Origin: Paraspadella gotoi
Lineage: Eukaryota > Animalia > Chaetognatha
DNA: 64,000 bases
NCBI GenBank assembly: GCA_051294375.1
Contig: CM119265.1
Span: 11,161,818-11,225,817 of the forward strand
Direction: 5' to 3'
Shown here: one piece after another, positions 765 to 58,600 of the stretch
Position numbering within the stretch: position 1 is the first letter of the stretch
How the letters are laid out: each line of letters begins with the position of its first letter
Notes under the pieces: generated by a model
Told to the model about the DNA's origin: nothing
Seen by the model: the letters and a program-made list of their open reading frames with translations, nothing else
Database searches by the model: none
Translations under genes and position numbers: made by a program

Positions 765-827
765 TATCTTGTAAGAGTGATGGAGGCCTTAAACCACCAA
801 AGCCTGTCCAAAGTCAGGGGCAAGATA
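765..827 (+). ncRNA. P5-type twister ribozyme, family A (copy 1)
   Basis: P5 TATCTTGT/GCAAGATA; GA[TGG]-AGGCCT-T^AA-ACC-AC; P4 CCTG-T[CCA]AAGT-CAGG; T1 CCA/UGG, T2 AC/GU; predicted cleavage 790|791; within a repeat (638-862) also found at 45526-45750. Confidence 0.72.
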
Positions 828-1014
828 GCTTATTTATTAAATGAATGGATAATTTTTATATTTCTGAGACGGCAAGCTCTGTAACTCGAGTAGAAATGAT
901 AATTTGAAAGCGAGTTTTTGTCTTGTTATCGAGGACTCATATGGCTACTCCCCCTTCGGTAAGCCATTGCTCTACGACCACTTTTGGGACATAGCAGTTT
1001 ATTGTAAAAGTTTA

Positions 1015-3929: not shown

Positions 3930-3960
<31 letters not shown>

Positions 3961-5050: not shown

Positions 5051-5081
<31 letters not shown>

Positions 5082-9033: not shown

Positions 9034-9069
<36 letters not shown>

Positions 9070-12000
9070 AATTGCAACGATCCTTATGCTCATTTTTCTG
9101 CTCTCTCTCTCTCTTTGCAATTGCTACTGACTTCCATTAGCTCATTTACTGTCTCATGCTTCTCCTTTACGCTACTTCTCAATTTCGTCTATACTCTCGT
9201 CTTCTCTCTCTCTCTCTCTCATCTCTCATAATATAAAGATTCAAGTGAATCATGTAACTATGTTTTTCATTTAAACTCATTTCCACTGGCACATATTCCG
9301 TAAATAAAATTTATATCGCTTCTTTCACACACTTTCACTACCCGCTCACAAATTTCAATCTCAATGCTATAGTAGTTTAAATAAAGTAAAAAGATTAAGT
9401 AATTGACTCATATTTTTTTCCATTTAACTCATTTCCACTGTACGCTTTCCACCGAAACTTTATATCAAGCGATCGTTACATCATGTTTTCTACCCACAAA
9501 AAAATTTAACCTCCAATCTATCCATCCATTATGATTAATTAGAGTCATTATCTGGTTAAAATAATTAAAAATTTTAGTAAATGCGACTTATGTTTTTTTC
9601 CTGCTTAAATCACACGATTCCGTCGAAACTTGTAATATCCAGCTTTATCACTCACTTCCACCCGTACACACACAAAATTTCTTTCCATCCAACCAGCCAA
9701 TCACGAGTTATTGGAGCTTTTTGCTAAGGTGGGACGGGATGGACGGATTGATTGACTGATAATTATTGATTAATTAATTAACTAATTGATTAATTAACTG
9801 ATTAATTATTGATTTATTAATACATCCTGCATATATCATTAATATAAAAGGAAAAAGAATCATAATAATTAGTGAAACAGGTTTTTTTTTCTATTTAAAC
9901 TCATTTCCACTCAAAAGATTCCATCGAAACTTGGTTTCCTGTTCAATCACACACTTTTCTACTCACATACAAATCCAGGTCAATCGATAATTAAGTGGCC
10001 ATAAGCTAACCTGTTCAACTTGCATAATTTAATCAACTTGCATAATGTTGGTCAACTGACATAATTTGGTTAACTGACATAATTTGGTCTACTGACATAA
10101 TTTGGTCAACTGACATAATTTGATCAAATAAGATAATTTGGTCAACCGGCATAATTTGGTCAACTGGCATAATCTATCAACTGGGCTAATTTGGTCAACT
10201 AGCATAATTTGGTCAACTAGCATAATTTGGTCAACTGCATATATTGGTCAACTGGTATGATTTGGTCAACAGGCATAATTTGGTCAACAGGCATAATTTG
10301 GTCAACTTGCAGAACTTGATCAACTTGCAGAATTTGGTCAACTGGCATAATTTGGTCTACTTTAAGAATTTGGTCAACTGGCATATTTTTGTCAATGTGC
10401 ATAAATTGGTCAATCAATCAGAGATAGAGAGAGAGAAACTTTAAAAAATTCAAATAAATGTATCTTTTGGTTTTCTAATTTGAACTCTTCCATCAAAAAT
10501 TTATATCCAGCTTTATCACATACTTCCTACCCACACACAAAATTCCATTTCGATTTATCTATCCAATTTTATATAAACTATAATTATGAGTAAATTTAAG
10601 TAAAATACTTCAAGTAAATATGACTTTTGTTTTTCCATTTTAACTCATTTCCACTCGCACGATCCATCGAAACTTTATATCAGCTCAATCACACACTTCC
10701 CTACCCATCATACAAAATTTCAAGTCAATTGCCCTATCCATCCATGAGCAATTGTGCGTTCAAATAGTGAAATATATTTTTTTGTTTTTTTTTCATTTAA
10801 ACCAATTTCCACTCGCACGATTCCCTCGAAACTTCATATCCATCTCAATCACACAGTTTCCTACCCACACACAAAATTTCATACCAATCCATCCATCCAA
10901 TCACGAGTAATTGGAGTTTTTGCTAAGGTGGGGCGGACGGACGGACGACGGACGGACGGACGGACGGAAGAGACGGACGGACATCGTTTTTTTTGCATAA
11001 TTTATCATAATTCGATGTTCTGCATGACATAAGTGTGTGCCCGACAATATTGAGGGGGCGGACCGACGGGACCGACAAAAGTGAGCTTATAGAGTCGGGA
11101 TTTGCTGATAAGCAGATCCGACTAAAAATAATATGGATAAAAATATTTGGAAAAGGAAATAAAAAATAAGCTAAATTTCAAAAGATAAAAAAATATGATA
11201 AATAAAAAGAATAAGAAAAATTAACATTGGAAATAAAAAAAGGGGCAAAAACCAATATTAATTGAAAAGGAAGATGGGGACAAAATGCAGGAATGGAAGG
11301 AAATAAAAAACTCGGTCAAAAATACTATAAATAAAAAAATATATATAAATTTGGTATCTATTGTCATTCAATAATTTTGCAAAACTGAGAACATGGTATT
11401 AAAAATTATTTTAAGCACTTAAAATTATAAGATTTTCAATTATTTACACATAAAATATTAATGAATGGCTCTATGCTCTTAATAATAGTGTTTTAGTTAT
11501 TATTTTTTGTAATATTATAAAAAATTATACATAATTTATTAAGTGTTCCGTTTTACCCCAGGGTGGGGTAAACGGAACACTTTTTCAATTTTTTTTTAAA
11601 AAAAGCGACCCCTCTGGGCCGCAGGATAAAAATGAATATATCAACCTGTAGCGGGGACACTTTCTAGATATATCACCAGAAATTTTTTTTTTTTAATAAA
11701 TTTTTACTATGCAAAAAATTTGATTACTTCCAAAAGTGTTCCGTATTACCCCGCACTACCCTATTTTAAGTATTTTTTAGTCAAAACCTTTATGGATTTT
11801 CTTCGTTCCGGCTGCGTTGGATAGCCCAAACACTGCAGTTTCAGAAATCATTCAGGGGTATGGAATATTTACTGCGCTACTGGTGCAAAAATTGCTAGGA
11901 ACCAAAATTATCAGAAACCGCTTCGTTCTTTCGGATTTTTTTCTAAGCGCGGAGCGACATATCTACATAAACATCAGCCACTTCGCGACATGGACAAAAA

Positions 12001-21000: not shown

Positions 21001-24000
21001 GCGAAGACTCTCTTGAAAGGTCCCAATTCAAAAACGACACTGAGCGGGGACGCTCAGATTTTATAAAGGGGAAAGTATCTGTTGGACATAAACTCTCCGT
21101 CGTGGTCCGTCGACCTTATTTACCTTTTGTAAAGTCTTTAAAAATATAAACAATCGATATTTATTTATAAACAATACAGTTCATTGTTATTTCAATGCTT
21201 TGATTAATCATGATTCTATTTCATACAGATCGCATTAATGTTAGTTGGCCATCGTCGGGGTTTTTTTATATATATATATGGTTATTGGTTTATGCGTTTC
21301 ATGTTATTTGAATAAGTGGCTAGGCGCGAGCTTACCTGAGAGATCATTGCTGTTTCTATCGTTAACCGGATGCTTACCTTTTGCTTACCCCAGTTCTTGA
21401 TTTCTAAAGACTCATTAAATCCTACGATATAGATACTCTCAGAAGGGTGAGCGACCAACGGAAAAACCCCGCTCATCATGCCCATTGGGATGGGGCATCT
21501 CACTGTTGGCTTTGGGGCTTCCGACCTCAGTGACGCCGCACCCAGTCACTGGCGCGGTTACCTAGGACGGTCTCGCTTTGCCAACGCAGAGGGAAGTCGT
21601 TAGGAGCTGTGGATGGAACACTACGCCTGGATGGTGTGTTCCCCCTCTGAGCCAATGGATTTGGCTGACGGATGGTTGGAAGCGTAGAGGCGGTGTGAAT
21701 ATACCGCCACAACAGGAAAATTTCAATTTAGAAAACGTGATTAATATTTCATTTAACCCAAACTTGAACATTTTTAGTGGAATGAAAAAGAACTTTCAAT
21801 AGCTAATAAACAATTTTTAATCTTTGTTATCAGATTATTGATTCATCTGAAAAGAGGAAAACACTGCAGTCGATTAATATATGTTAAGAAAAATATTGCC
21901 TTGCGTAGGTATTAATACAAAGAAAAAACTTATTTAGTAATTGACCGATGTAATTGAACTCGTATTTGTTTATGAATAAAGATCAACCTTTATTTATTTA
22001 ATGTGGGGTTCTAGTTGGTTGGCGACTTCGCCATGGCGATATCGCCAGGGCTTTGGCGATGTCGCCAGTCCCCCCACTGGCGACCTCGCCAGTGATAAAA
22101 GTAGCGAATATAATGAAAAGCGCAGCTAACACGGGGATGAACATCACCTACAGGCTTCTCTCCCAACCCTAAACCAAACCTCCCGTTCAACTCTGTGCCT
22201 CTCCCCTAACCCTAACCCGGGCCTGGGCCTCCCGTACATATCCGTGCCTCAACCCTAACCCTAACCGCCTTCGATGCATCAACCACGGGCCCCTCCCCCA
22301 ACCCTAAACCAAGCCTCCCGTTCAACTCCATGCCTCTCCCATAACCCTAACCCAGGCCCTTAGTAGTTAAGAGGGACGAGGCGCTTAACCCGCCTGTAAC
22401 ACGGTGTTACAACCTGATCCGAAGCTCAGGGACTGCTTATATTGAACGGTTTGTCAATAACTCATAACAATTATTACTGTCTCTTAAAAAGTAAATTTTA
22501 ATAAAAATTAAACCATAACAGTAACTTACGCGAACCTTACCTGCTTACTTCAAAATTTTTTAAACAAAATGCAATGTATACCCTGCCAGAATCATTATTA
22601 TACCAATTTGCTGTATAAAAAAAGCATTATATCAAATAATTTTAAAAAGATTAATATATCATCTAAATACTAAGAGTGAAGAGGCTGGTTTTACAGGGCG
22701 CCAAACCCGCAGCGGTGTCACCTCGTGGCGACAGCGAGACAGCATGTTTATGTAGTCCAGAGCTTTGGATCTGGCAGTAGGCCCATGCCTACAGGCGGGT
22801 TACCCGGGCCATCCCACTTTCTACATGACAACCTCAGGGCTCGAACCAGGGACGCACATTGGGATGGTGCATTAGTCCACTGAGCCACTGAGGTGCTGCG
22901 AAAGAAACAGCTTTAATCCATCTGTGGTGATAGGACCACCAGAAGAGACTATTATACAAATATTTATTCATATTTTAAAATCATTAAGAGTTTTAGTTAA
23001 AGGGGCACTTTTTGGCATAATGTATAGTTTTATGGTGACCTAAATCATCAGCGGCCAAGGAAAAAGGAGCAACCGAGTTATTGATTATCTGGATTTTACA
23101 ATAACACGGGTCACAAACAAAGCGTTTAAGACGAAAATGAAGTTTTTTAAAAAGTTGAACAATGGTAAAATCGCGAGGAGTTCTCTCAAAATATTTAAAA
23201 AATAAAATAAATAAAGTATACCAGTCATGATTCAACGACAATTTGCCATGTCGTTTTTAAATGAGCCATTGGTCCGTTAAAAGTCGCTGTCTTTAGTCCT
23301 TTGTTGCTTCGACAACAAAAGAACATACTCAAAAGCCATGGCTCGCGACCAGAATGCTCGTAACAAAGAATATATAATTTTTAATATATACATATATATA
23401 TAAGATATATATAAGATATAATTTAAAAAAGTCCATTCAAAAAAGTTCAGCGGGAAAGATGTTTCAAAATAAACGAGCCACAAAAATCCTCTTTCGCAAA
23501 CCGCGGTTGCTCGTCGCAAAGCCATGGCTTTCGGATTTGGATTTGCGGTATAGTAAATTATGCGCATTTGGGTCAAATATAAAATGTAAAACGAAACAAA
23601 AGCCTTTTGTTTTCTTCGGATTTATTTTAACGTTTAGAAAATTGATCCCGCGCTCCCCCCAAAAAAAAACACACTGGGCTTTCTTCCAGTGTATTCAAAA
23701 TAAACATTTATTGACGGCTTGAGGTCGGATTTAAAGGTTAAAAAAGTTGTTTATTTGATTACCAAAACAAGCAATCGAGCATAAATTTTTGTTTTCATTT
23801 TTTCAGTCAGGTGCTTGGAGGAGACAAAATGCTTTTTATATATAAAGTCAAAGTGATCTTTTGTTGAGTACAATTAAAGAACGAGCTGGTCTTTGGAGAG
23901 GAAGATTGGAAGGGGTTTAACCAATCTATTTAAAATGCATTTTAATACATGAAAAGGTTAAAATAAAGCTCGCGCTCCCCATTCATGTTCTTCCCAAGAA

Positions 24001-34300: not shown

Positions 34301-34619
34301 TGAATCTTTTTACTTATTTTAACCTATAATAGATTGAGATGAAATTTTGTGAGCGGGTAGGAAAGTGTGTGAAGAAGCTAGAATAAAGTTTTGACGGAAT
34401 TGTGCCAGTGGAAATGAGTTTAAATGGAAAAAACATAAGTCACATTTACTTGAATCTTTATTATTTATGATTACTAATTTATGATTACTAATAAATGTTA
34501 TAATTAATTAATTAATTAATGTAAAAAATGATGCAATTTAAAAATCATGCAAATTGAAAAAATGATGCAAGCAGAAAAATGATGAAGTTAAAAAAATCCT
34601 AAAAGATCGTCGCAATTGC

Positions 34620-34662
<43 letters not shown>

Positions 34663-34857
34663 AGAAAAATGAGCATAAGGATCGTCGCAATTGCAAGAGA
34701 GAGAGAGAAGAGAAGAGAGCAGAAAAATGAGCATAAGGATCGTCGCAATTGCAAAGAGAGAAAGAGAGAAGAAAATGAGCATAAGGATCGTCGCAATTGC
34801 AAAGAGAGAAAGAGGGAGAGAGAGAGCAGAAAAATGAGCATAGGATCGTTGCAATTG

Positions 34858-34898
<41 letters not shown>

Positions 34899-37800
34899 GT
34901 CCGAGATAAAATTAGCGAATAAAAAAGTTGTTATTTTACTCACTTAAAATACTTACAAAATACATAAAATTGATAAAATTATTATTCCGATAACATTGTT
35001 TAATCACATGCAATATATCTAGTAAGGCGGGCCAAAATTTAACACTTTTTATAACTTCCAGTTCTCTCAAAAAAATTTCTTTTTTCCTTCTACTACTAAA
35101 TCGATTTTCAATGTAACTTTTTGAATTAGTCCATTGGGTTGTGCACTGAAGCTTTTAAATATTTATTAATATATAACAAATGACAAAAAAAATTTAAAAA
35201 TTTGATTTTTTTAAGAACGGGTTCTTGTAGAGCTTAACAAGTTAAATGAAAGTTAGTACTATAAATTTTTTTCAAATTTTGACAATAAATTGGTTAAAAA
35301 TAGAAAAACACGTTAAAGAAATCATCATCATCATAATTGGCTAAATTTTATTTTTTCAAATTTTTCATTAATAAAACAAAAAAAATTTTAAAAGTTGTAT
35401 TAACTTTTAAAGCCCTATCAGAATCTATAAAAAAAATTGATAAGCAAAATTTTAAAAATTATTTTCATTTTCATATTATTTAATAGTCGCTTAACCATTA
35501 TTTATTTGAGAGAACTTCTAATTTTCAACCTGTTCCGGCCTAATATCTAGTAAGACGGGCCAAAATTGAACACTTTTTATAACTTCTAGTTCTCTTTAAA
35601 AATTTTTTTCTTTTTACTATTAAATCGATTTTCAATGTAACTTTTTGAATTAGTTCATTGGGTTGTTGCACTGAAGCTTTTAAATATTTATTAATATATA
35701 ATAATTATATAAAGTTTTGACGGAATTGTGCCAGTGGAAATGAGTTTAGATGGAAAAAATATAAGTCACATTTACTTGAATCTTTAATATTAATGATTAC
35801 TAATAAATGTTTTAATTAATTAATTAATTAATGTGAAAAAATGATGCAAGTTAAAAAAATGTTAAAAGCATAAAGATCGTCGCATAAAAAGAGAGAGAGA
35901 GAGAGTGAGAGAGAGAGAGAGAAGGAGACATAAAATAAAATAGAGGATATTTGTTTGTTTTGATAAAATGTAAACAAAACATATTTAATAACTGTCCTAA
36001 CCCAATTTTAAGGACATCGATGATGATAAGTTGAATATAAATTTAAAATTAATTATTACATTTTAAAATTAATTAATTAATTAATTAATCGATTAATTAA
36101 TTAATTAATTATTGTGGGCAGATCCGACATTGTTTGCTCAAACTTGTTTAATCAATATTATTGCAGTCGTTTAGTCCGCAACTCTTCAAATTCAGTGTAG
36201 ATTCATTGTAGCTCGAATTTCTTTACCATTTATTTAACTGAAGATTTTGTTCATGACTGGAAAACCAACAGAGTAACAAGATTAATTGTTTATTTCTCCC
36301 CTTCTAATTTATCCCTTTGAAGAGACAGTAATTATTGATAAGTGTTAATGACAGAACCGTTCAATATAAGCAGTCCCTGAGCTTCGGATCAGGCTGTAAC
36401 ACCAATGTTACAGGCGGGTTAAGCGCCCCGTCCCTCTTAACTGCCAGACGACCACCGGGCTAGAACCCCGGACCTTTGGGTTGGGAGGCGAATGACTTGC
36501 CTCCGGCACCAATGGCCGCTGATGAACGGTTGGTGGATTTTAGTCCACCATACATCCCCCCTCCCGTAGGGAGAAGTCTGTTGCGTCTCTTCGGTGAATT
36601 GTTGTTGTTGGTGGAAAGTTCGTCACCAAGTTGAGGCATGTCGCCTGATGTGTTGTGGGCGGAAAGTGCATCGCCAGGTTGAGGCATGTCGCCTGAAAGT
36701 GTTGTTGTTGCTGTTGTGTTCGGAAGTCGGGCTCACCAATGAAGAGACAGTAATTATTGATAAGTGTTAATGACAGAACCGTTCAATATAAGCAGTCCCT
36801 GAGCTTCGGATCAGGCTGTAACACCATGTTACAGGCGGTTAAGCGCCCCGTCCCTCTTAACTGCCAGACGACCACCGGGCTAGAACCCCGGACCTTTGGG
36901 TTGGGAGGCGAATGACTTGCCTCCGGCACCAATGGCCGCTGATGAACGGTTGGTGGATTTTAGTCCACCATACCTTACCATTTTTTAACTTCTTACCTAA
37001 AATTTTTTAACAACCAGATTGAAAAACAAATCTTTAAAAAATGTGCTTACCCATTTAACTTGACAATTTTGTTATTTATTTATTTTTTTGTGATTACCGA
37101 TGACTATAATGTATTTCTCAATGTATTAGCTCTAATACATCAATGATTACGCATTAGGGTGGAGTGATGAAAAGATTGAGCGATGGAACAATATTTTTTT
37201 GCTGCCTTTGTATATGTAATAAAAAATAATTAAACCCTTTTTCAAAAAAAATTTGCACAACAGTATCATTAATTGAATTTTCTTTATAGTAATATCCTTA
37301 TAAAATCATAAAATTTCAAAATCATATTTTTTTAATTTTAAAAACAGTTTTGGATTCGCCGGAAAAAACTGAAAAACTTTTGTAAAATATATTACATGAT
37401 ATTTTTAGGTTAAAGCTTCGAAAAATGATTAAGAAGTTTTATCATATAATAATTTTTATTACAAAGTGTAAAAAAGTAGAGAATTTGACCTTTTTTTTCC
37501 CCATTTTTGACGCTGAAGACATTGAAATTTTTAATAACATATTTTATATTTTTGATCTAACTTTTTGTGAAGAATCAGAATCTTTAATAAAAATTTAAAA
37601 AAAAATTATTCTAAAAATTTATGGTTTTATAAGAATATTACTATAAATATATTGTAATTAATGATACTGTTCCCCAAACAATATAAGCAAAATACTTTTT
37701 GTACTCCTTAATCATACTATCTCACGTCTAAATATCCTTGTTTGATCACTCAAATAAAATTCATGTTCCCCAGTGCTCCATTCTATTACGCATTGTTATG

Positions 37801-40281: not shown

Positions 40282-41851
40282 AATCTGCAGTAGAAACTTT
40301 AATTAACGGGCAGACGCTAACTTGCTTCGATCATAATCGTTTCACAGAAAAAGATCTGCCATCGGATGAATAGGCATGATTTTATTTCAATTTTGGTCGC
40401 CTCGCAAATTTAGTAAATCGACAGATTTTGCGAAAAATATTTTCCGCAAAATCTGTCGATTCTCAGAAAAAACAAGTCCTGACGCTTTCCATTGGGTTAA
40501 AAGGATGCGGTTTTTTTTATTAATCAACGTCAGTATGTATATCATCTTTTAAAACTAATAAATGAGTTTAAAATATTCTCTTTATTAAAAATAAATGCAA
40601 GTCACAAAAAGTCACAAATTAATAGGCGTCTTTAAAAATTATGTGGCTAAACGAAACAGGTTTTTATGATAATTTTGTAGGTATTAAAAGCTTATTCAAT
40701 AGGCTATATTTTCTGTTAATTTAAACTAATTTGAACAATTTTTGTTTAACAAATTATGATAAAAACTGAAAATGAAACTTTTTGACTTGTCAACTTTAAA
40801 ATTAATTCATAGGCAAACTATAAATGATTTAAGGAAATAAATTTACCCTGAGGCGAAGAAGATAAGGAAGAACGGATTTCCCAAGTAAAAGATTTTTCTC
40901 AACTTTCCTTGCCATTCAAATCAGAAGACGAAAGTGAAAATGGATGAAAATGGACATGATTTTTTTTCCTAAATGTTGCAATAATTGTACTTTTTTATCA
41001 TTAGAAACAGGTAGAGATGATTTTAACCAATCCCTAATTCGGCCCAATTTGTATTGTGGTACAAATTAAATTAATAATGTAACAACTGAACAATATTAGA
41101 AAAAGTTGTTTTTTGCTAAATGCGACGTTTGTAAGCGGAACCTCTATCAGAATCTATTAAAAAAAATTTAAAAATGAAAAAAAAATTTTGTACTTTATAT
41201 AGTAATAAAATAATCTTTAAATGCTTCCGTGCGCTAATTAATAAGCTAAATTTTAAAAATTATTTTCATATTCTTTAACAGTCACTTAACCATTATTTAT
41301 TTGAGAGAACTTCTTGTTTTCAACCTGTTCCGGCCTGATAATTATGTATGAATTTATTGTTTATAATCTATAATTACAGGGACTTCAATCAAGAGTGATA
41401 CGAAAAGATAGAGAGAGAAAATTTCATTTTCACAACGAATTAGTTTAATAAAATAATTTGTGAACTTATGTAATATTTTGCCTGATTAACTGAGAAAAGT
41501 GTCACTTATGGTGGACTAAAATCCACCAAATCCGCTCATGACCTAGCTCATTAAGTAAAAAGATTTGTTTAAGATACAGAAAGTACAAAACTAATGGTCA
41601 TGATATACAAACAAAAAAGTATAAGAAAATTCAGCCTCCAGCTATTTTTATTATTAACAGAAGTTTTAACTCAGTTAAATTAAGAAATAAAATTTATTAA
41701 CATTAAATTTTTTTTGTTGAAAATATTCTAGGGCTTAAACTAATTTAATGTCAATGTTAAACTAAGTTTTATTTGAAAAATATTTATAAATTAATACCCT
41801 TTAGAACAAAGTTTGAAGAGAGATTTAACAACGATTTTTATTTCATAGTGA

Positions 41852-44752: not shown

Positions 44753-45652
44753 GATTCAATCAACAATTTTCTCATTAATGTTAGTTTTTAGAGAGAGAGA
44801 GAGAGGAAGGAATAGAGAGAGAGACAAAAAGAGGGAGATTCCAACAAAGAATTGAGAAAGGACAGATGTGATGCCCTTACCTTCACCTGTCCTCACATCT
44901 GACCATCTAATCTAATCTATCAAAAATTACCAGTATCCTTGCCAATACCAGTTTGCTTAATTTGCTAATTTTGCATAATTGGGTCAACTTGCATAATTTA
45001 ATCCACTGGTATTATTTGGTCAACTAAAATAATTTTTTTTAACTTGCAGAATTTGGTCACTTAGATAATTGTTCAACTGGCATAATTTGGTCAACTTGCA
45101 ATCAATCAATCAATCAGAGAGAAAGAGAATTTAAAAAAAATTCAAATAAATGTATATTAGAGTGATGTGAAAATGATACAATTTTAAAAAATTAAAATTT
45201 AGCATATAAAATATGAAAATAAAAACCAATAAAAATACTTTGGTAAATTTCTTTTTTAATTGTATACATTGGTGGGCACTAGTGAACTATATTTATATAT
45301 AGTATTAAGTATATAATAGGCTAAAATTTCAAATTTCTAATTCCTAAATTTTAAGATCGGATTTGGATTCTTTGCAAAAAGTTAACATAAGAAAGTATAA
45401 TTCTTTTTTAAAAATTATTTCATTAAGTTGGTTAAAAATGTAAAAAAATATATTTAAGACGCCGATTTTCAATTTGCAGGTTTAAAAATATAATTTTTTA
45501 TAATTTTAACCTACTTGGGTCTTTTCATACAATTGAAACATTCTTTGAATATTATACCACTTCATTGATAGGGAAGACAGGTACTCTGGGAGTGAATAAA
45601 CGAGACTGTGAGAGAGTCTTGATTGAAAGCTCGCAGGGACCTGCTATGTCAT

Positions 45653-45715
45653 TATCTTGTAAGAGTGATGGAGGCCTTAAACCACCAAAGCCTGTCCAAA
45701 GTCAGGGGCAAGATA
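45653..45715 (+). ncRNA. P5-type twister ribozyme, family A (copy 2)
   Basis: Same sequence as 765-827. Confidence 0.72.
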
Positions 45716-46944
45716 GCTTATTTATTAAATGAATGGATAATTTTTATATTGGTTGTACCAATTTCATAATTTTTAAAAAAGATTTATATTTTATATTTTA
45801 TCAACTTTTAACGAGGAATCTGAATCTGTTCTCAGAATTAAAAAAAAACATTTTAAAATTTTGACATTATATAAGGGTAGTACTATATACAAAATAAGCT
45901 GACTGGGCGGGCTACTATATTTAAAAAAAAAACAAAAAAACTACAGATTAATATTTACTAATATGATAGTTTTTAAGATATAACTGCTAAATTTCGATTC
46001 CAAACTTTCACTTCACCCTAATGTATATTTTGGTTTTTTAATTTAAACTCTTTTCCACTCCTACAATTCCATCAAAAATTTATTTCCAGCTTAGTTGCAT
46101 ACTTTCCTACCTACACACAAAATTTCATCTGAATTTGTCAATCTAATTTTTAATAAACATAATAATTATGAGTAAATTTAAGTAAATATGACTTTTATTT
46201 TTTCCATTTTAACCTATTTCCACTTGCACGATTCCATTAAAACTTTATATCCAGCTCAATCACACACACACATCGTAACATCATACAAAATTTCAAGTCA
46301 ATTGCCCTATCCACTCATGAGCAATTGGCGTTCAAATAGTGAAATATTTTTTTTTTCCATTTAAACCAATTTCCACTCGCACAATTCCAGCGAAACTTCA
46401 TATCCATCTCAATCACAGTTTCCTACCAACACACAAAATTTCATACCAATCTATCCATACCATACCAATTGGAGTTTTTTGCTAGGGGGGGACAGACAGA
46501 CGGACGGACGGACGGATGGAAGGACATTATTTTTGCATATTTTATCATAATTTGAGATTCTGATATTATAATAATGATTTACCGACAATATTTTGGGGTG
46601 GGACCGACGGACCGACAAAGTGAATTATAGAGTCGGAATCTGCTGATAAGCAGTTCCGACTAAAAATAAGCATGACGATGCCAACGACGACGGTACAAAG
46701 AAGCAATAGCGAACATATTGCCCAAGACGGGTCTCAGCCGGTCTGGCGAGATAAAAATTTTATAATATGAATAATACTAATAATAATCATCACGTTTTCC
46801 CTTTAAAATCTATTAAAATTATGAAAGACGACTTTGTTGATAAATAATAGTTATTATAATAAGTAAGGTTTTGTGGATAAGGCGCTAAGTGGGCTGAAGA
46901 TGACTATCCGTAACTTCTATAACCACCTTTAGTAGCTATGGAAC

Positions 46945-47020
46945 CGGTCCTGGGCTTGGAACCAGGCTTGAGGGTTCGCCACACCCCCAAGGCGGCTTAC
47001 GGCCGTCCTCACGCTTCCCG
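46945..47020 (-). ncRNA. P5-type twister ribozyme, family D
   Basis: Minus strand: CGGG-AA-GCGT-GA[GGA]-CGGCCG-T^AA-GCC-GC-P3(CTTGGGGG/CCCTCAAG)-CCTGG-T[TCC]AAGC-CCAGG-A-CCG; T1 UCC/GGA; preceded by tRNA-like head 47030-47100 (TGGCTCATTG, GGTTCAATCCC). Confidence 0.82.
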
Positions 47021-47469
47021 CAGGGTAGGTACTGGGTTGGGATTGAACCCGGTACCTAGTGGTCATGAGCTAATGGCTTTACTCAATGAGCCACCGGGTC
47101 AGGACTGAAGGTGTCATGCTTATAGGCGGGGTGAACCTAGGCAATGCCCGACTACAGTTTTACATGAAAATTTTTTTTAATAATACTAATTTGACTTTTT
47201 ATCACCAAAAATTCCCATTTTTATATAAGATGACTTTACAATCAGCGTTAAAAATTGTTAAACTCAATTTTAAGCACATCGATGATGAGAAGCTGTATAT
47301 TAATTTTCAGCTTCATACACACAAATTTAATCATAAAAAAGGCGATCTATAATTTGGAACGCCGAAAACAACGCCGACGACGACGCCACTTATGCGCAAA
47401 AGCGTTACAAGATCGTCGCAAACGCTAAGCGATTGCGACGATAAAAATAACATAAATAACATTGGAAAT

Positions 47470-49604: not shown

Positions 49605-52600
49605 TCAAATTCCTTCTTCTTTAAGAAACCCGTGTTCTGAAGCAGGGTAAACATTTCGATCATCATTGAAATTGATATGAACGTATAGTTTATTTCGACC
49701 GAATTCATAGTCAATCCTCTCACTTTCGGGTTTCATTTGGTCGTCTTCCTTGTCGTCGCCGCTGTCATCTTCGCCGTCGGGTTCCTCCACTTCCTCCTCC
49801 TCATCCTCCTCGCTCTTCTCCCGGATCTTCCCCGTGGCGTCGGCCGTCCGCGGCACGATCTTGACGCCCTCCACCGTCAGCTCCTCGCTCTTCAAAAACT
49901 CTTCCAACGACGACTTTTTCTCAAAGTAGATGAAACCTGGAGAGAGAAGGAGTTGAGAAAGCGGAATTTCGCGAAAGGAAATAGGATTCTCGCAGATAGA
50001 CATCAATCTTGTTAGTAATATTTAAATTAGCCTCCAATTTAGTAATTAACTTTCTTTCAAATTTTGTCTCTCTTAATTCTGTAAGTTCCAAAGTTTAATA
50101 TTTCATAGATTCCCAGGAACTTGGCGCCTATTTTGTAAACATTTTGTCTAAGTAGAATAAACAAAGGAAGAGAGACGAGAAGGAGGCCGAGATTTTAGTA
50201 CATTCCATTTTTAGATCTCAAGGGAGTAAGACGCAATATTTTAACAACTGTTTGATTTACTAATACAACTTTGGCAATCTACAATTATTTCAGGTAACTT
50301 CAAAAAATAAGACTAGTCAATCATGTACCACCTAGCTCTCTATCTGTCATCTATTGAGGGTCACAGGTCACGTTACCGACATGGTGGCCAGCGTTGTTCG
50401 CTTAACGGACAGCCTCGAAGTTATCTGTACGCGCGAATGTTTGTTTTTGTCCGAGTTAATAAGGGGGTAATATAAGATTTTTTTCTTTTCCCAATAAAAC
50501 GAAATGCATTGTAAAGTGAAGAAATTTTTTTCTTAAAACGTTTAGTATATTTTTTTTGTTTTTGTTTTAGCCTCTCTGACTTACGAACATGATTTATTGT
50601 TGATAACGATGAATTTTGGGATGTTCTTACTCGAAAACCAAAACAAATTTAGTTTTGTTTATTAACCGGTAATCTTTATAATTCGACGTTTGGGTTATTC
50701 AATATTATTATTATTCAATTCGCTCGATTCCTACATTAAAGATTTCATTCGGCATAATTTTTTTACTTTCGATATTTTTAATTTACACGGTTGAAACGGA
50801 CAATGTATTTGGGTAACAAAGATAGTAAGCACGGATGGTTACAAAGCATTTTAAATTGGGTCGAATGATATAAACGAGTTGAGATAGAATTTTTCCTTCC
50901 TTTGGGAGGGAGGGAAACTGCCACCATGTCGGTAACGTGACCTGTGACCCTCAATAGATGACAGATAGAGAGCTAGGTGGTACATGATTGACTAGTCTTA
51001 TTTTTTGAAGTTACCTGAAATAATTGTAGATTGCCAAAGTTGTATTAGTAAATCAAACAGTTGTTAAAATATTGCGTCTTACTCCCTTGAGATCTAAAAA
51101 TGGAATGTACTAAAATCTCGGCCTCCCTCTTGTCTCTCTTCCTTTGTTTATTCTACTTAGACAAAATGTTTACAAAATAGGCGCCGAGTTCCTGGGAATC
51201 TATGAAATATTAAACTTTGGAACTTACAGAATTAAGAGAGACAAAATTTGAAAGAAAGTTAATTACTAAATTGGAGGATAATTAAAATATTACTAACCAA
51301 ATTTTTTTATTTCTTCTCGCGTTTATATTTTTATATTCCAGCCGAGTGAAAAGAAAAGAAAAGAATAACAGAAAAAAACAATCAAAAAACAGTGGGATGA
51401 TCACCCGCATCGGGGGTCGCGAGTCTGACGAAAAAGACTGTGCCGAACTTCTTCTCGCATGTCGTCTTGAGTTTCAGTCGCGTCATGTCGGTTGACGGAT
51501 GATCCGTCTCTTCAGTAGAAGTCAGAGAGAACCCGCCCTTTTTAAAGATCGAGTCGCCTACCGCGATCTCCCACTAGAAAAAAATGGGAAGATTTTGAAA
51601 GTTAGCTTTTTACTTATAGATAACAAGAAAATAATAATTATTTTTAGCCGGATTTGCTTACAGCAGATTCCGGCTCTATAATTCACTTTGTCGGTCCGTC
51701 TGTCGGCCCCCCTATTTTGTCGGGCATTCACTTATATCATATAAAAACATCAAATTAAAATAAATTATGCAAAAAAAATTATGTCCGTCTGTCCCACCTT
51801 AGCAAAAAACAACAATTACTCGTGATTTGATGGATGGATTGGAATGAAATTTTGTGTGTGGGTAAGAAAGTGTGTGATTGAATGATGGAATCGTCCAAGT
51901 GGAAATGAGTTAAAATAAAAAAAACAAACAATCTATTTCACTATGCTTTTTTATTTTTATATTAAATGTAAATTCAAGCTGCATTAATTAATTATTAAAA
52001 AATAAGTAATTAATTATTAACTATTTGTAATTAATTAATTTTGTGATCGAGATTGTTGTTTTGTGATTGAGAGGCGAGACAAAGTAGAAAACGATTTTGA
52101 TACGAATAAAAAAAAATAATTAAATTAATTATCTGATTAGCTGCTTACCTCTAATTATCGTGGTCAGATCCGGCATTGTTTGCTCAAACTTGTTTTAATA
52201 CAAAAGGCTTCATATTATAAATTGAAGTACTATGGCAACGGGGGGACATGTGTGATGCCTGTGATGAGGCATCTCCCGACAGCTGGCGCTCAGGGCTTTG
52301 GACCTGCAGTGACCACCCCATGTCATTGGGGTGTTTATGCCGACACCATCACACTTTAACCAGCGTGACCGTGAGGGGATTGAACCCGGAACTCACTGTT
52401 GGTGAACGAGTACTTAGCTGTCCAATCCAATGGGACGAGTTGAGTTTCACCAAGCTATACAGAAATTTAAGATTCACCACACATGCCCCCCCCAAGACAG
52501 CACACTGGGGTCCTCAAGCCCGGAGTGACTGTCTTGAGAGTAGATGGGCTCATTGCCATAGAGAGCGAGCGAGCGAGCAGTAGGGCATAGGCGTGGGATG

Positions 52601-55600
52601 CATACCCTTAAGCGACAGTATGCAGCGGTTGCGTGTTCGATAGTAGGGCTTACCACTTATGGCAATGGGGGGACATGTACATGGTGACAATTTTACAAGC
52701 GCCAGTAGAAATACGCTGTCATTTGCAAACCAGGGTTGGCATTAAAAAACCCACCCAAAAAAAAAACAGCTAAAAAAACCTAAAAAAACTCACGAAAAAG
52801 TGGGTTTTTTGGGGTTTTTTTTTATATTTTTTTTAAAATTACTTAAATTTTTTAATATGAAACATTAAATTGTTGAAGCAAAAATCTAAATCATATAAGA
52901 TCTATCATTTTTACAAAGCTTAATATATAATTTAATGAAAATGCAGGAAAATAATATATTGACGTCAGGAAAAAATCTTAACTTAATTAAACACCTTAAT
53001 ATTTTATTAACTCAAATATTGTATTCGAACATCAAAATTTATTTTTAGCCCAAAAGACAAGTTAGTTCGGCAAAAACATGTACTAAAGATGTACTTCAAT
53101 TTTTAATGTATTAGTAATTTATATAAATGTTTATGATGCATATTTATATCAAATTATTTTGAGTATTTAATTACCATTTTCTAATAAGATTAAGTTTATG
53201 CACTTTTTTCATAACAGGTTTTATTCAGAAAATATAATATTTATATTTATTACATTTTTGTTTACCATAAAAGATATTAATTAATTAATACTATTATTAA
53301 ATATTATCAGTATATTTTTATCAGTAATCACTTAAAAAGTATAAATATTTTAAATTTGTATATTAAAAAGTATTAATATGACAGTCTGCTATCTATAAAA
53401 AACCCAAAAAAACCCAGTTGCAAACCAGTGGTTATTTCATTGATTTTAAAAATTAGTTTAGTAGAAAATACTAAAACCAAATGTGTTATTGATCAGTTAA
53501 GATATTCCTTGACAATGAGTGGAGAAAGTTGGCTTTTCAAATCGGGTTTCATTTTCCAACTCACTGTTTTTAAATTCAATTTTTTGCTACTTTTAATAAA
53601 AAAATTATGTCCATTTTTGTCCATTTTGACTTTTGTCTTAAGATTTTTAAATATACTAGTCAAAAATTTACTTTATTACAATTTTTTAAACGAAAATACT
53701 TCAAAATGTCCACAAATCTAATCAAATATTCCATTTCAACGGTGCTTCTAAAAAATTCTAAAAAATTAGGGCAAAAATTTAATAGTTTTTAAGTCAACTT
53801 TTAATTTGTGAGGATTTGTGAGGTGCGTTTTATTTGAACTAAAAACTCGAATAGAAAGGAAAGAAAGAATAGAAAGGAAAGAAAGAATAGAAAGGAAAGA
53901 AAGGAAAGAAAGAAAAGAAAGAAAAGAAAGAAAAGAAAGAATAGAAAGGAATGAAAGAATAGAAAGGAAAGAAAGAATAGAAAGGAAAGAAAGAATAGAA
54001 AGGGGAAAAAAAGAAAATTAATTTATAAACAGAAAGAAAAATTCTATTGTGTGATTGTCAATTTACAGTTACAGTTTCTGAAAAAAAAGGGAAAAAAAAA
54101 GGGAAAAAAAATATTTTTCATTGTCAAAAGAATAAATATAAAACAGTAAAATAACTTATTTTCGAGTTTAATTTTTAGCAAGTGCTAAGACTGGAGTAAC
54201 ATTATTGAAGGTACTTTTGTTTTACTTTAAGCACGCATAAGCGAGCAGTTTGATCGAATGCGACCTCTCTTAACACTGACAGCATTCCCAGACAAAAGAC
54301 AAAGTGAAACTTGAATCAGACTGACGAAGTGAAGTAAAGATTAAAGTGAAATAAAAACCCGATGTTACGATAGCAAAATTATAACATGCATGAATGCGAT
54401 GCCTAATTTTACGAGTTCAATCCCAATTCAATCTTTTTTTTAATAAAAACACACACAGAGAGAGAGAGAGTGAGAGAAAAAGAAAGAAATCAAATGGCAG
54501 CAGCAGAAGCAGCAGGAGAAAAGAGAGAGCCCCTGCAGAGCCAGCTGCAGACTTAAAAGGCAGCAGCAAAAGCAGCAGGAGAAAATAGAAAAAAAGAATA
54601 AGCCCCTGCAGAGCCCGCTGCAGACTCGTTTTTTTCCCTATGATTATGAATCAGTGATAAAACGTAAACAAAACATATTTAATAACTGTCCAGACTCAAT
54701 TTTAAGCACATCGATGATGAGAAGCTGTATATAAATTTTCAGCTTCATAAACCCAAATTTAATCATAAAAAAGGCGATCTATAATTTGGAACGCCGACGA
54801 CGACGACGCCACTTATGCGCAAAAGTGTTACAATATCGTCGCAAACGCTTAGCGATTGCGACGATAAAAAATAGTGGAAAAAATGGAAAAAAAATTTTAA
54901 AATATAGCTTGCCGTTTTTTTGCCTAAACTAAAAAACGCGATTTATCTGACGAGCAATTTAATCTTTAAAAGTTGCCCTTACCATGAAAAATCGTTTTAG
55001 TTTCATCTTAATTAGGGCAGATACCATAATTAGAATGATTAAGGTAAAAGAAATTATGTCTTACCGTACTTTGAAAGCATAGAAATTCACCCAGTGAGTT
55101 CGATGTTATAAGGAGAAAATAACTATAGCCCAACTTTTTTTTAAATAAAGCGTGTTTTATATTAATCAGTGGAAACAAAAGAAATAATAGTTACATAAGT
55201 TTTAATTTTATTGTTATCCATTGTATTAATCCTTTCCGCTTCGTTGAGTTTAGAAATTTGAACAAAGTTTGAAAAATAATTTCATCAACGATTTTATTTA
55301 TGTACGGACATGTTTCGACTCTTTATTTTTCGAGTCTTCAATAAAGAGTCGAAACATGTCCGTACATAATAAAAATCGTTGATGAAATTTTTCAAACTTT
55401 GTTCAAATTTTATTGTTGAAAATACCCGAATAGAAATCACTGTCCTTGGTTTTATTAAGAGTGTCATAAGTGAATTATTTAAAATTTTAAATCTTTTTTC
55501 AAAATATATGACCTGTTTAAATTATTAAAACAAAATATTATTATTTATGTAAGTATCATGAAATAGCCTATCACAATTTGATAAAAATCATAAATTTACT

Positions 55601-58600
55601 CTCCAGCTATTGATTTTTAAAAAGATGCCTCATTTTTTAGTATCCTAATTAAATTAAAGCTGGGTCAGTTAAATTTTATACTACAGTATTCGTAGGTACG
55701 TCATTCTCTTTAGATTTGAAAGAGCTTCCAAAAAATAATAATATTATTATTTTATTTCGAATTTCTTCAGAAAACTTACTGAAAGTAAGAAAAAAATTAA
55801 ATATAAAAAAAGTGAGTTTAAAAATTAGAGACGATTTTCAAATCCATCTTCCTGCTATCATTGCTGAGGCATATCAAAGTCGATTCTGATAAAATTTGCA
55901 TATATAATTAGTTTGGGTTTTTACTATTAAATTCCTATTTAACACTGAAAAAATCTTTATGGGTTTCCAAATAACAGCGTTTTTCTACCGGCGATTGCAA
56001 AATTGTCACCATGTATGATGCCTGGGGTGTGAGGCATCTCCCGACAGCTGGCGCTCAGGGCTTTGGATCTGCAGTGACCACCCCATGTCACTGGCGTGTT
56101 TATGCCGACACCATCACACTAATCAGCGTGACCATGAGGGGAATGAACCAATCCAATGGGACGAGCTGAGTTTCACCAAGCTATACGGGAGGCGATTTTT
56201 TTGTGACCAGAACACGTTCCGAGAAAACTATTGAATTGATTTGAATGAAATTTGGTATGAACGATCCCTATGTGAATACAAATATTGAGGCGAATTTCAA
56301 TATTTGACTCCTGAGCCGAGATATGGGGCCCGTTAGGGGTCACCCATATAAATATATATATAATATATATATAATATATTATATATTAATTAGCAAAAAA
56401 ATTATTAATTTTAGTTTTAAAAAATATTTTTATGTTTAAGACATTGATGAGCCTGATTCTACAAAAAAGTTATAAAAATTAAAACAAATTTTTAGCCTTT
56501 TTTGGCCCCCAAGGGCCCTGTATCTCTCGTCAGGGGTTGAATATTAAAATTCGCCTCGATAGTTCCATTTATATCGTCATTACAACAATGTAAAATTTCA
56601 TGAAATTCTAACGGGTAGTTTGGTGGGAACAGATTCTGGTCACAAAAAAGGGGTACCTCATTTTATAATATGAAGCCTTCTGTATATCACAACCTTGAGG
56701 GTGCACTTTCCATCCCTGATGGAAAAAGAGTTTGGTCTGACGATGAAAGTCTTCAATGATTGTTTGTCAGCAAAGTGAAGATAAGTTCTTGGCTCGCGCC
56801 GGCGCGGGCCTTTGGGAAAGTATTCCACATTGATGATGTTTTCTTGACGGAGAAATATTCTGTAAATGAGAAAAATCTTAACGACAAAATTAGCGCCAAG
56901 GAATATCGTCCAGGACATGATACATTTAATTAGCATCAAATACAGAAGGCTTCATATTATAAAATGAGGAACCCCTTTTTTGTGACCAGAACTCGTTCCT
57001 AGAAAACTACTGGACCAAATTTATTGAAATTTGGAATGAACGATCCCTATGTGAATACTAATATAACTATCGAGGCGAATTTCAATATTTGACCGCTGAG
57101 CCGAGATATGGGCCCCCCGGGGGTCACCCATGGGGGTAAAAAAATGGTCAAAAATTTTTTTTAAATTTTTTTTATTATTTTTGTTTTGAACAGTTGGACA
57201 GACGTTTACTCTTCCACAAAAACATATTTATTACCTCAGAAATATTAATTTACCTTAATTTTTAGCTTCATGAACATCAGCAGTTAAAGTCAGATTTGGA
57301 ATAATTTGGGAAAATTTGAAGTAAAACGATGAACCATGCATCTTCAACCATGCTTAATTATTACAAATTTATCAATTTCAGTTCTAAAATGTTTTTTTCT
57401 TATGTTTAAAACGTCATTGCACCTGATGCTACTAAAAAATTTTGAAAAATAAAATAAAAATTTTTAGCATTTTTTGGCCCCCAAGGGGTCCACCCCCAGG
57501 GCCCTGTATCTCTTGTCAGGGGTTGAATATCAAAATTCGCCTTGGTAGTTCCATTTATTTAGTCATTAGCACTCTAAATGTTAAATTTCATTAAATTCGA
57601 TTGGGTAGTTTGGTGGGAACAGATTCTGGTCACAAAAAAGGGGTACCACATTTTATAATATGAAGCCATCTGTAATCTGTATGCTTTCCAAGCGCGATTC
57701 ATCTATTCTCACTTTTGCAATTCCTCCAAGGTAACGTCGTCCGGAAACCCGCTTAGCTGAAGAGGCCAACTCTTGAACTTTTTTGTCAGTGTGTAGGAAA
57801 GGCAGGCGGTGCCCAAGGTGATCCGTGGCTTCTCAGCCAAAACTTTACGGCCGACCTGATAATCCATCCAAACAAATGCCACCCGGTTTCGCATCCACGT
57901 CACCTGAAAAAAAAATTAGAAAATGCCAGTTCTACACGGATTTCAAATCGGAGTTTAATGAAAAGATGTTATTGCTCACTCAATATGGTTGATACTTAAT
58001 CATTTCATTAGTTAGAAAATTCCCTGATGTTTATGTTTCTAAATAACAAATTGAGAATAATTGGTTCGTTTGTCTTCCAGCAGCTTTTTTTGCTGCATTT
58101 TTCCCTCTTATTTGATAATTCAAATTCATTGTGAAAAAAATTGAGACGAATAATTTCTTTTATATTCATTTGGGGATGTGCATCGTTTCTAAAACTATTT
58201 AGTAATTTTAAATGATATTGGTACCGATCGATAGGAAATTCAAAATATTATCTACATACAAAATTTCATCAAAATCGGATAATCCGTTCAAAAGTTATGG
58301 CAAAAAAACAATCTCGAAAATCGCGCTTCAAATCGATCAACTTTCACTTAAAATCGAACTCGTTTTGATCCAATAAGGATTTGAACTACGCGTTAGACTA
58401 AGCTTTAAATCGGTAATCGAGATTAGGCGCAATCCGGGCCTCGTAAGAAGTAATTGAAGAAGCGAAACAAGGAAAAGAGGTAATCATTAGAAAGGTAAAT
58501 GAATAAAATAATAAAATTATAACAAATATGTAGATAAATCATAAGAGAACAAAACAAGTTATCAATGAAAAGTATAGCGAGTGATTCGCCAGGAAAATTA

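What the first reader, a model, noticed from the sequence alone, without database searches (positions are those of the whole stretch)
36318..36973. Retrozyme-like 1.5-mer: two twisters 420 nt apart, with a tRNA-like Pol III head
Seen: a direct repeat places two same-sense twisters with cleavage sites 420 nt apart. Each is preceded by a tRNA(Gly-CCC)-like head, and the spacer base-pairs with the repeat. There is no credible ORF. Established: non-LTR retrozymes are partial-tandem monomers released by two ribozyme cuts (5'-OH, 2',3'-cyclic phosphate), circularised and copied in trans by a helper RT; described metazoan cases use hammerheads. Inference: a twister-based retrozyme/SINE hybrid producing a ~420-nt structured circular RNA that carries its own internal promoter.
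Basis: partly seen in the sequence, partly recalled or inferred. Interest (0 to 1): 0.88.

Follow-up and report, generated by a model that had tools for sequence, protein, structure and literature searches.

The report
Animal LTR mini-retrotransposon with twister ribozymes
This 655-base jumping element in an animal genome has the ends and priming sites of an LTR retrotransposon and, in each terminal repeat, a tRNA-like segment followed by a twister ribozyme fold that is predicted to cut out a 420-base RNA which would be circularised and copied by a helper element, a design so far described only in plants and only with hammerhead ribozymes.

Summary
The repeat and the two same-sense twister folds, with predicted cuts 420 nt apart, are real, but this is not a non-LTR 1.5-mer. 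On the minus strand it is a miniature LTR retrotransposon (TRIM), 36318-36972: 233/235-bp LTRs, a tRNA-Trp-type primer-binding site, a polypurine tract and a 4-bp target duplication. Contigs of one run show fixed ends in many different flanks, and four empty-site joints each lack 659 bp. Each LTR holds a degenerate tRNA-like segment (as in Helenus TRIMs) followed by a P5-permuted twister; Rfam misses it, but both pseudoknots covary across five families in the window. In all nine copies the P1 helix is replaced by a loopless palindrome, which suggests cutting as a strand-swapped dimer. Best reading: an animal LTR retrozyme that uses twisters and possibly Pol III. Cleavage, transcription and circles are untested; no RNA data were available. 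Two published wasp Helenus LTRs carry an unannotated hammerhead at the same place. I found no paper on animal LTR retrozymes or twisters in LTRs.

The parts
36318..36972 (-). Whole element, 655 bp, termini TA...CA
   Evidence: TSD and ends; loose ends of contigs at 36316-36318 and 36552; empty-site joints
36973..36976 (+). Target-site duplication copy (CCTT on +)
   Evidence: sequence
36314..36317 (+). Target-site duplication copy (CCTT on +)
   Evidence: sequence
36740..36972 (-). 5' LTR, 233 bp (lacks 1 nt in twister P2 and 1 nt in the P3 loop relative to the 3' LTR)
36318..36552 (-). 3' LTR, 235 bp
36553..36739 (-). Internal non-coding region, 187 bp, with a 46-nt duplication at 48-nt spacing
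36726..36738 (-). Primer-binding site, tRNA-Trp type (TGGTGAGCCCGAC), 1 nt behind the 5' LTR
   Evidence: 13 of 14 nt identical to the Trp PBS of Gypsy-32_NVi and Helenus-2_SyJa in Fig. S2 of PMC10886601
36555..36565 (-). Polypurine tract, 2 nt before the 3' LTR
36868..36939 (-). tRNA-like segment of the 5' LTR (A-box-like 36931-36920, B-box-like 36887-36877); predicted Pol III promoter, degenerate
   Evidence: not found by ARAGORN or Rfam
36448..36519 (-). tRNA-like segment of the 3' LTR
36792..36864 (-). P5-permuted twister fold of the 5' LTR; predicted cut 36841|36840
36370..36444 (-). P5-permuted twister fold of the 3' LTR; predicted cut 36421|36420
36842..36847 (-). Loopless self-complementary hexamer in place of P1 (5' LTR)
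36422..36427 (-). Loopless self-complementary hexamer in place of P1 (3' LTR)
36421..36840 (-). Predicted cut-to-cut monomer and circle, 420 nt
   Evidence: inferred from the two predicted cuts; fold z -2.53
22365..22487 (+). 5'-truncated LTR copy of the same family (twister plus LTR end; one T1 mismatch)
41507..41539 (+). 33-nt fragment of the same LTR's 5' end, also beginning at TATGG
22677..22943 (-). Family 2 solo LTR: canonical A/B boxes, twister, 4-bp TSD; in an intron of the GCP3 gene, sense strand
46931..47156 (-). Family 3 solo-LTR-like unit: tRNA-like segment plus twister, imperfect 4-bp TSD (3 of 4)

Best explanation
The element is a non-coding miniature LTR retrotransposon with a tRNA-like segment and a twister-ribozyme fold in each LTR, and it likely moves as an LTR retrozyme: a transcript spanning both LTRs is predicted to be cut by the two twisters to a 420-nt monomer that a host ligase would circularise and a Gypsy-type helper would copy and integrate. 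Steps: (1, inferred) Pol III, or read-through Pol II, starts near 36940 and runs to the first T4 at 36264; the element has no T4 on its sense strand. [quoted passage not shown] (3, inferred, as proposed for plant retrozymes) Ligation by an RtcB-type ligase closes the circle, which replaces the first strand transfer: RT primed by tRNA-Trp at the PBS runs across the junction, the PPT primes the plus strand, and two full LTRs are rebuilt. (4, shown for the product) Integration gives fixed ends and a 4-bp duplication. (5, more speculative) Because P1 is a loopless palindrome, the two twisters may fold together as a strand-swapped pair, so that two-LTR precursors are cut while solo LTRs and monomer circles are spared.
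For: LTR anatomy: PBS, PPT, TSD, CA end. Dispersed family with fixed ends: in run X1, 46 contigs leave the LTR at 36316-36318 and 29 at 36552 into unlike AT-rich flanks (6 of 117 loose-end rows shown); 4 of 11 listed joints join the two flanks with known letters between, and all 4 lack 659 bp = 655 + 4. Twister: UAA cut site, GA-n-G-n general-base strand, both pseudoknots, P2, P3, P4 and P5 in the order of the P5 permutation, matching the element table of PMC8501958 and the Rfam P5 model order. Across 9 copies of 5 families, 89% of cells pair and 10 of 16 pairs change on both sides, including 2 of 3 T1 pairs and 1 of 2 T2 pairs; 0 of 500 shuffles reach this. P1 and P2 flaws are tolerated and pseudoknots and catalytic bases are what matter (PMC11662667); those are intact here. 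All 4 families with a B box have a twister fold about 35-40 nt behind it. Same layout with a hammerhead and a Trp PBS seen by eye in Helenus-2_SyJa and Helenus-2_SyUm. Circle-replaces-R model: PMC4918200.
Against: Nothing here shows transcription, cleavage or a circle. Rfam does not match the focal twisters even at E up to 10. The A and B boxes of this family depart from the Helenus consensus (TRGCY and YGG not met; T after GGTTC), so Pol III use is uncertain. The 5' LTR of this copy lacks one P2 base that most contigs have, so it may cut poorly or carry an assembly error. The unit is only 54% paired against above 70% quoted for retrozymes. In equilibrium folds the 5' twister of the precursor and the twister of the circle are mispaired, the palindromes do not pair with each other, and the first PBS bases are buried (pseudoknots are not modelled). 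A 4% variant breaks a T1 pair with no partner change listed. No helper element was found in the window. The structure used for the pair counts was derived from these sequences, and the families are related.
Confidence: 0.68

Rival explanations
1. It is an ordinary Helenus-type TRIM that replicates through a linear Pol III transcript with a short R region; the twister is a passenger or only trims ends.
For: Helenus and Cassandra work without a described ribozyme (PMC10886601); no twister L4 in the Helenus data by motif search. No cleavage data.
Against: The fold is kept with two-sided changes in both pseudoknots across families whose other sequence is only about 70% alike or unalignable. An active twister at this place removes R and leaves circularisation as the simplest route. 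Two wasp Helenus have a different ribozyme at the same place.
Confidence: 0.14
2. One reading: a non-LTR retrozyme/SINE hybrid, a 1.5-mer with circularly permuted ends inserted by target-primed reverse transcription.
For: Repeat-spacer-repeat layout, tRNA-like segment, ribozyme spacing of 420 nt.
Against: PBS, PPT, 4-bp TSD and fixed ends; metazoan non-LTR retrozymes lack PBS and PPT and have larger TSDs; family 2 occurs as a solo LTR with a 4-bp TSD.
Confidence: 0.04
3. The twisters cut as monomers and the palindrome has another job, such as a kissing signal for dimer packaging into helper Gag particles, or is inherited from a donor element.
For: P1 is dispensable in tested twisters. Phage twister-like matches with a 6-nt linker exist without a palindrome (2 of 3 distinct sequences). 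GC-rich 6-nt palindromes as retroviral dimer signals is recalled knowledge; Ty1/Ty3 palindrome papers seen only as listings. This rival changes step 5 only.
Against: The palindrome sits exactly at P1, has no loop in 9 of 9 copies, and also occurs in family 5, which has no tRNA segment or LTR signs; Rfam's P5 consensus has a 14-nt loop there. The hammerhead precedent (palindromic helix III, dimer-only cleavage) is close.
Confidence: 0.45
4. A local tandem duplication of a SINE with no meaning as a unit.
For: The two repeats are nearly identical.
Against: The internal region is itself multi-copy in run X1, is bounded by PBS and PPT, and the whole 655 bp is absent from empty-site contigs.
Confidence: 0.02

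Closest known systems
Plant LTR retrozymes (Cervera, Urbina, de la Pena 2016, PMC4918200)
   Same: Non-coding, two LTRs each with a self-cleaving ribozyme, PBS, PPT, 4-bp TSD; cut-to-cut RNA lacks R; ribozyme blocked in the predicted circle fold.
   Different: Animal host; twister instead of type III hammerhead; tRNA-Trp instead of tRNA-Met primer; tRNA-like promoter segment in the LTR; smaller (420 vs 600-1000 nt) and less paired; circles not shown here.
Helenus / TRIMp3 (Kojima 2024, PMC10886601)
   Same: TRIM under 1 kb with tRNA-like sequence in the LTR, PBS and PPT, 4-bp TSD as in animal Helenus, Trp PBS as in Synergus Helenus-2, TA...CA ends as in several wasp families.
   Different: The paper's main text mentions no ribozyme in Helenus and its consensus set shows no twister by motif search; box A here is degenerate; no T-run terminator behind the tRNA-like segment. 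No sequence relationship shown; Kojima regards Helenus as of multiple origin.
Type-P5 twister ribozyme (Rfam RF02684)
   Same: Strand order, UAA cut site, GA-n-G general-base strand, both pseudoknots, P4/L4.
   Different: P1 hairpin replaced by a loopless palindrome; P3 and P5 both present; covaried T1 pair; below Rfam detection for this family.
T-variant twisters of Perere-3 RTE elements (Liu et al. 2021, PMC8501958)
   Same: Twister in an animal retroelement, weak P1; P3 stem starts with the same CUGUA as in the Schistosoma table.
   Different: Those are P1-type, single, at the 5' end of a coding non-LTR element; no circle.
Metazoan non-LTR retrozymes and dimeric hammerheads (PMC7229834, PMC4209133)
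   Same: Animal ribozyme repeats giving 170-400-nt circles; palindromic minimal helix that works as a dimer.
   Different: They lack LTR, PBS and PPT and use type I hammerheads.

Membership tests
TRIM (miniature LTR retrotransposon) | Two LTRs, under 1 kb, no coding capacity | tested here: met
TRIM (miniature LTR retrotransposon) | PBS behind the 5' LTR and PPT before the 3' LTR | tested here: met
   one mismatch to the honeybee tRNA-Trp shown in the paper; the host's tRNA was not available
TRIM (miniature LTR retrotransposon) | Short TSD and fixed termini | tested here: met
   4-bp TSD; 4 of 4 flank-to-flank joints lack 659 bp; loose ends at 36316-36318 and 36552. 657+2 fits the arithmetic too but not the loose ends.
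TRIM (miniature LTR retrotransposon) | Autonomous helper with matching PBS | not testable with these tools
   no genome held; none among 102 frames scanned in the window
Helenus / TRIMp3 | tRNA-like sequence in the LTR with boxes A and B | tested here: inconclusive
   GGTTC of box B met, acceptor-like stem and T-arm fold; box A consensus TRGCY/YGG not met in this family but met in family 2; ARAGORN and Rfam negative
Helenus / TRIMp3 | 4-bp TSD in animals | tested here: met
Helenus / TRIMp3 | Pol III transcription | not testable with these tools
   unproven for Helenus too
Twister ribozyme, type P5 | U/AA cut site, general-base G strand, P2, P4/L4, pseudoknots T1 and T2 in P5 order | tested here: met
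Twister ribozyme, type P5 | P1 stem closed by a loop | tested here: not met
   loopless palindrome; no hairpin predicted, self-duplex -8.3 kcal/mol; P1 reported dispensable
Twister ribozyme, type P5 | Rfam RF02684 match at gathering score | tested here: not met
   no match for the focal copies; family 5 scores 25.8 bits against 37.6
Twister ribozyme, type P5 | Site-specific self-cleavage | not testable with these tools
   needs an in vitro assay
LTR retrozyme | Ribozyme at the same place in both LTRs, PBS, PPT, 4-bp TSD, non-coding centre | tested here: met
LTR retrozyme | Ribozyme is a type III hammerhead (strict definition) | tested here: not met
   no hammerhead core in the element; twister instead
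LTR retrozyme | Abundant unit-length circular RNA | not testable with these tools
   no RNA holder listed
Non-LTR retrozyme | Tandem monomers without LTR, PBS, PPT; larger TSD | tested here: not met

The most novel reading that the evidence does not exclude
Animals have their own LTR retrozymes, hidden among tRNA-promoter TRIMs, in which the ribozyme slot is interchangeable (twister here, hammerhead in Synergus wasps), and the twister here is an obligate strand-swapped dimer: the palindromic P1 lets the 5' and 3' LTR copies build two active sites together, so only full-length precursors are cut and the resulting circle, which carries its own Pol III promoter sequence, is protected from recutting.
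Probability: 0.35. Interest if true: 0.86.

Novelty: new variant of a known kind. Interest (0 to 1): 0.73.

Why it matters
The papers read state that animal ribozyme repeats lack LTRs, PBS and PPT and define retrozymes by hammerheads; the Helenus paper does not report ribozymes. This element would extend LTR retrozymes to animals, show that the ribozyme class is exchangeable, give genomic twisters a third role in retroelements besides 5'-end processing, and tie two separately described groups (TRIMp3 and retrozymes) together. A natural dimer-dependent twister was not found in the searches run; it is testable with a short in vitro transcript and would be a useful copy-number-sensing RNA switch. 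It also offers a genomic source for one-sided twister circles seen in transcriptome surveys.

Tried and rejected
No whole genome was held, so copy number, TSD survey and helper search could not be done genome-wide. Sequencing runs: no RNA holder listed; X1 is labelled RNA by guess only, covers flanking repeats in 28 of 30 bins and runs into unlike AT-rich flanks, so I read it as DNA and possibly the source of the assembly; it says nothing on expression, and summed depth is no copy number (LTR bins about 16,000-54,000, internal bins 3,600-11,200). X2 laid 0 and X3 1 contig. The joint 36739 to 36318 is the ordinary internal-LTR junction, not a circle. Plus-strand readings as pistol, HDV-like or hammerhead were considered by eye and dropped: only the minus strand gives a complete fold. 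TG...CA termini with a mutated first base were rejected because 29 contigs end at 36552 and the 41507 fragment also starts at TATGG. Collection scans for relatives: 15 + 29 viral loci, of which 5 loci (3 distinct sequences) have a 4-bp P4 and 1 of those 3 a palindromic linker; 18 of 18 metagenome loci lack P4 and are chance. Genome contigs was not scanned. A mis-specified window pattern found nothing. Roth et al. 2014 and Lunse et al. 2017 are not held. Earlier-finding look-ups by place, by sequence and by eight words were empty. A CTTAACCCGCC stretch shared with Ajax LTRs has no L4 behind it and was treated as chance. The host lineage could not be narrowed beyond animal.

Full report
Observation. 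The flagged stretch is a GC-richer island in AT-rich, repeat-filled animal DNA. The nearest gene is a gamma-tubulin complex component 3 on the minus strand, with exons found from about 30.5 kb down to 2.4 kb; all named relatives among the 120 of 233 hits listed are animals, at 42-46% identity, and the best unnamed hit is 58%, so the lineage is not resolved. Two repeats, 36318-36553 and 36740-36973, are 99.2% identical and differ by two single-base indels. Everything of interest reads on the minus strand.

It is an LTR element. One base behind the upstream repeat lies TGGTGAGCCCGAC (36738-36726); with the base before it, 13 of 14 nt equal the tRNA-Trp primer-binding site printed for Gypsy-32_NVi and Helenus-2_SyJa (PMC10886601 Fig. 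S2). An 11-nt polypurine tract (36565-36555) ends 2 nt before the downstream repeat. The element 36318-36972 is flanked by a 4-bp duplication. Contigs of run X1, which behaves like genomic DNA, test this. Of 11 joints listed, 4 connect left and right flank with known letters between, and each lacks exactly 659 bp, that is 655 plus 4; these come from other copies of the repeat into which the element inserted. A fifth flank-spanning joint has unknown letters between and was not counted. Among 1079 contigs laid on one LTR plus the internal region, 46 leave the LTR at 36316-36318 and 29 at 36552 into unlike flanks (6 of 117 rows were shown). So ends are fixed, TA...CA, and the family is dispersed. 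TA...CA ends also occur in several wasp Helenus consensus LTRs. The element has no credible ORF. This is a TRIM, not a permuted non-LTR tandem.

The tRNA-like segment. Each LTR has an A-box-like and a B-box-like motif inside a 72-nt segment that folds with a 7-bp closing stem and a T-arm. ARAGORN and Rfam do not call it, the anticodon stem does not form, and box A departs from the Helenus consensus; the Gly-CCC label rests on a CCC triplet and recalled resemblance only. Family 2 in the window has canonical boxes. The sense strand has no T4 within the element; the first lies at 36264. That fits Pol III read-through but is not rare by chance. TRIMs with a tRNA-like LTR segment are the Helenus group (PMC10886601; main text parts 1-4 of 6 read).

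The ribozyme. Behind the B box comes, in order, P5, P2, the general-base strand GACGG, a 6-nt linker, the cut site U/AA, P2, the T2 dinucleotide, P3, P4 with loop TCCGAAGC, and P5: the P5 permutation of the twister. The elements match the table in PMC8501958 (section 17), down to the start of P3; the usual L4 C and L1 G of the first T1 pair are exchanged together. Rfam does not detect it. A descriptor gave 5 sites against 0.04 in shuffles; a second one with a free 0-40-nt linker gave 6 sites against 0 in 60 shuffles. With copies read by eye or found by Rfam the window holds 9 copies in 5 families. On their alignment (8 distinct rows) 89% of cells pair, 10 of 16 pairs change on both sides, 2 of 3 in T1 and 1 of 2 in T2; no shuffle of 500 reaches this and slid structures pair at most 52%. 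Caveats: the structure came from these sequences, the families are kin, and the two family 4 rows are out of register at P1 and P2. A high-throughput test of natural twisters found P1 and P2 flaws tolerated and pseudoknots and catalytic bases critical (PMC11662667, passages and section 32 part 1); the latter are intact in both LTRs. Among 28 variant rows at 1% or more in X1, none falls on the cut site, the general-base strand, the linker or T2; one at 4% breaks a T1 pair. The family is young, so this is weak evidence.

The palindromic P1. In all 9 copies the linker is self-complementary with no loop: GGCGCT, CCCGGG, CGGCCG, TGTCGGCA, AGGCCT. None folds as a hairpin; self-duplexes of the first four are -8.3 to -11.5 kcal/mol. 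A random hexamer is self-complementary 5.3% of the time with G-U allowed; Rfam's P5 consensus has a 14-nt loop here. The parallel is the animal hammerhead with a palindromic minimal helix III that cleaves as a dimer, thought to allow cutting in multimers and to spare monomer circles (PMC4209133, passages). Against: P1 is dispensable, 2 of 3 distinct phage twister-like matches with a 6-nt linker are not palindromic, and an equilibrium fold without pseudoknots does not pair the two palindromes. A family 2 solo LTR with an intact fold sits in sense in a GCP3 intron, which is easier to tolerate if monomers cut poorly, but proves nothing. I noted the dimer idea before seeing that earlier AI notes report palindrome-armed P5 twisters in Naiad Penelope-like elements of other genomes; those notes are unchecked and suggest a possible donor, and family 5, which has no tRNA segment, may be such a tail.

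Mechanism. Shown: an integrase-type product with fixed ends, priming signals, and a conserved twister fold in each LTR. Inferred: transcription across both LTRs, two cuts 420 nt apart, loss of R, ligation to a circle, tRNA-Trp-primed copying across the junction by a Gypsy-type RT, PPT-primed second strand, integration. This is the model proposed for plant retrozymes (PMC4918200, passages), with RtcB as ligase as tested for animal non-LTR retrozymes (PMC7229834, passages). The 420-nt unit folds better than 100 of 100 shuffles (z -2.53) with the ribozyme blocked and the LTR end paired to the spacer, but is only 54% paired.

Comparison and novelty. The papers read say that animal hammerhead repeats have no PBS or PPT. 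The Helenus main text has no mention of twister or self-cleavage, and ribozyme appears only in a reference title. In its supplement (parts 1 and 5-10 of 11 read; parts 2-4 and 11 only through motif searches, which miss motifs broken by line ends) I saw no twister, but Helenus-2_SyJa and Helenus-2_SyUm carry, by eye, a complete type III hammerhead right behind the tRNA-like segment and use the Trp PBS: the same layout with another ribozyme. Nine full-text searches listed no paper on twisters in LTRs, animal LTR retrozymes or natural dimeric twisters; subscription papers, Roth 2014, Lunse 2017, Repbase and the large twister lists in supplements were not seen and may bear on this. Other papers seen as passages: PMC7761336, PMC6765202, PMC10085705, PMC11721086, bioRxiv 2022.07.19.500677; PMC9695139 as listing and abstract start only (it reports an LTR promoter in a plant retrozyme). 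Verdict: a new variant of a known kind. It works like an LTR retrozyme and is built like a Helenus TRIM; it fails the strict hammerhead definition and the P1-hairpin feature. Interest 0.73; activity is untested.

Noticed in passing
PMC10886601 supplement DataS1, Helenus-2_SyJa-LTR and Helenus-2_SyUm-LTR: An unannotated type III hammerhead with complementary loops lies just behind the tRNA-like segment; PBS is tRNA-Trp. Read by eye only. These would be animal LTR retrozymes with hammerheads.
   Followed up: partly
window 22677-22943 (-) and 46931-47156 (-): Families 2 and 3: solo-LTR-like units with tRNA-like boxes and a palindrome-linker twister; family 2 lies in sense in a large GCP3 intron.
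   Followed up: partly
window about 52230-52680 (-) and 56010-56186 (-): Family 4: tRNA-like segment plus twister with an 8-nt palindromic linker; ends unresolved (21-nt direct repeats, terminal inverted repeats, a PBS-like stretch, and a shared flank in opposite orientation in the two copies).
   Followed up: partly
window 635-862 (+) and 45523-45750 (+): Family 5: 228-nt repeat, 97% identical, with a P5-type twister (Rfam 25.8 bits, below cut-off), no P3, no tRNA segment, T2 pair changed on both sides; possibly the tail of a Penelope-like element (untested).
   Followed up: partly
window 4390 (-), 41889 (-), 42872 (+), 44747 (-), 48950 (+): Five minimal hammerhead-like cores, each followed by the palindrome CATG, as described for Penelope-like elements.
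   Followed up: no
window 22160-22360 (+): Degenerate (CCCTAA)n telomere-like repeats directly before the truncated LTR copy.
   Followed up: no
L002, L003/L015, L007/L013 (viral contigs): Three distinct P5-type twister-like motifs with 6-nt P1 linkers in phage contigs; one linker is self-complementary.
   Followed up: partly
window 34461-36149 with 7744-11129: The element inserted next to or into a long repeat that has an inverted copy at 7.7-11.1 kb (82-84% identical); run X1 holds empty-site copies of the flanking repeat.
   Followed up: partly
window 36403: Nine contigs of X1 diverge from the LTR at the P3 loop, perhaps a subfamily with a different or broken twister.
   Followed up: no
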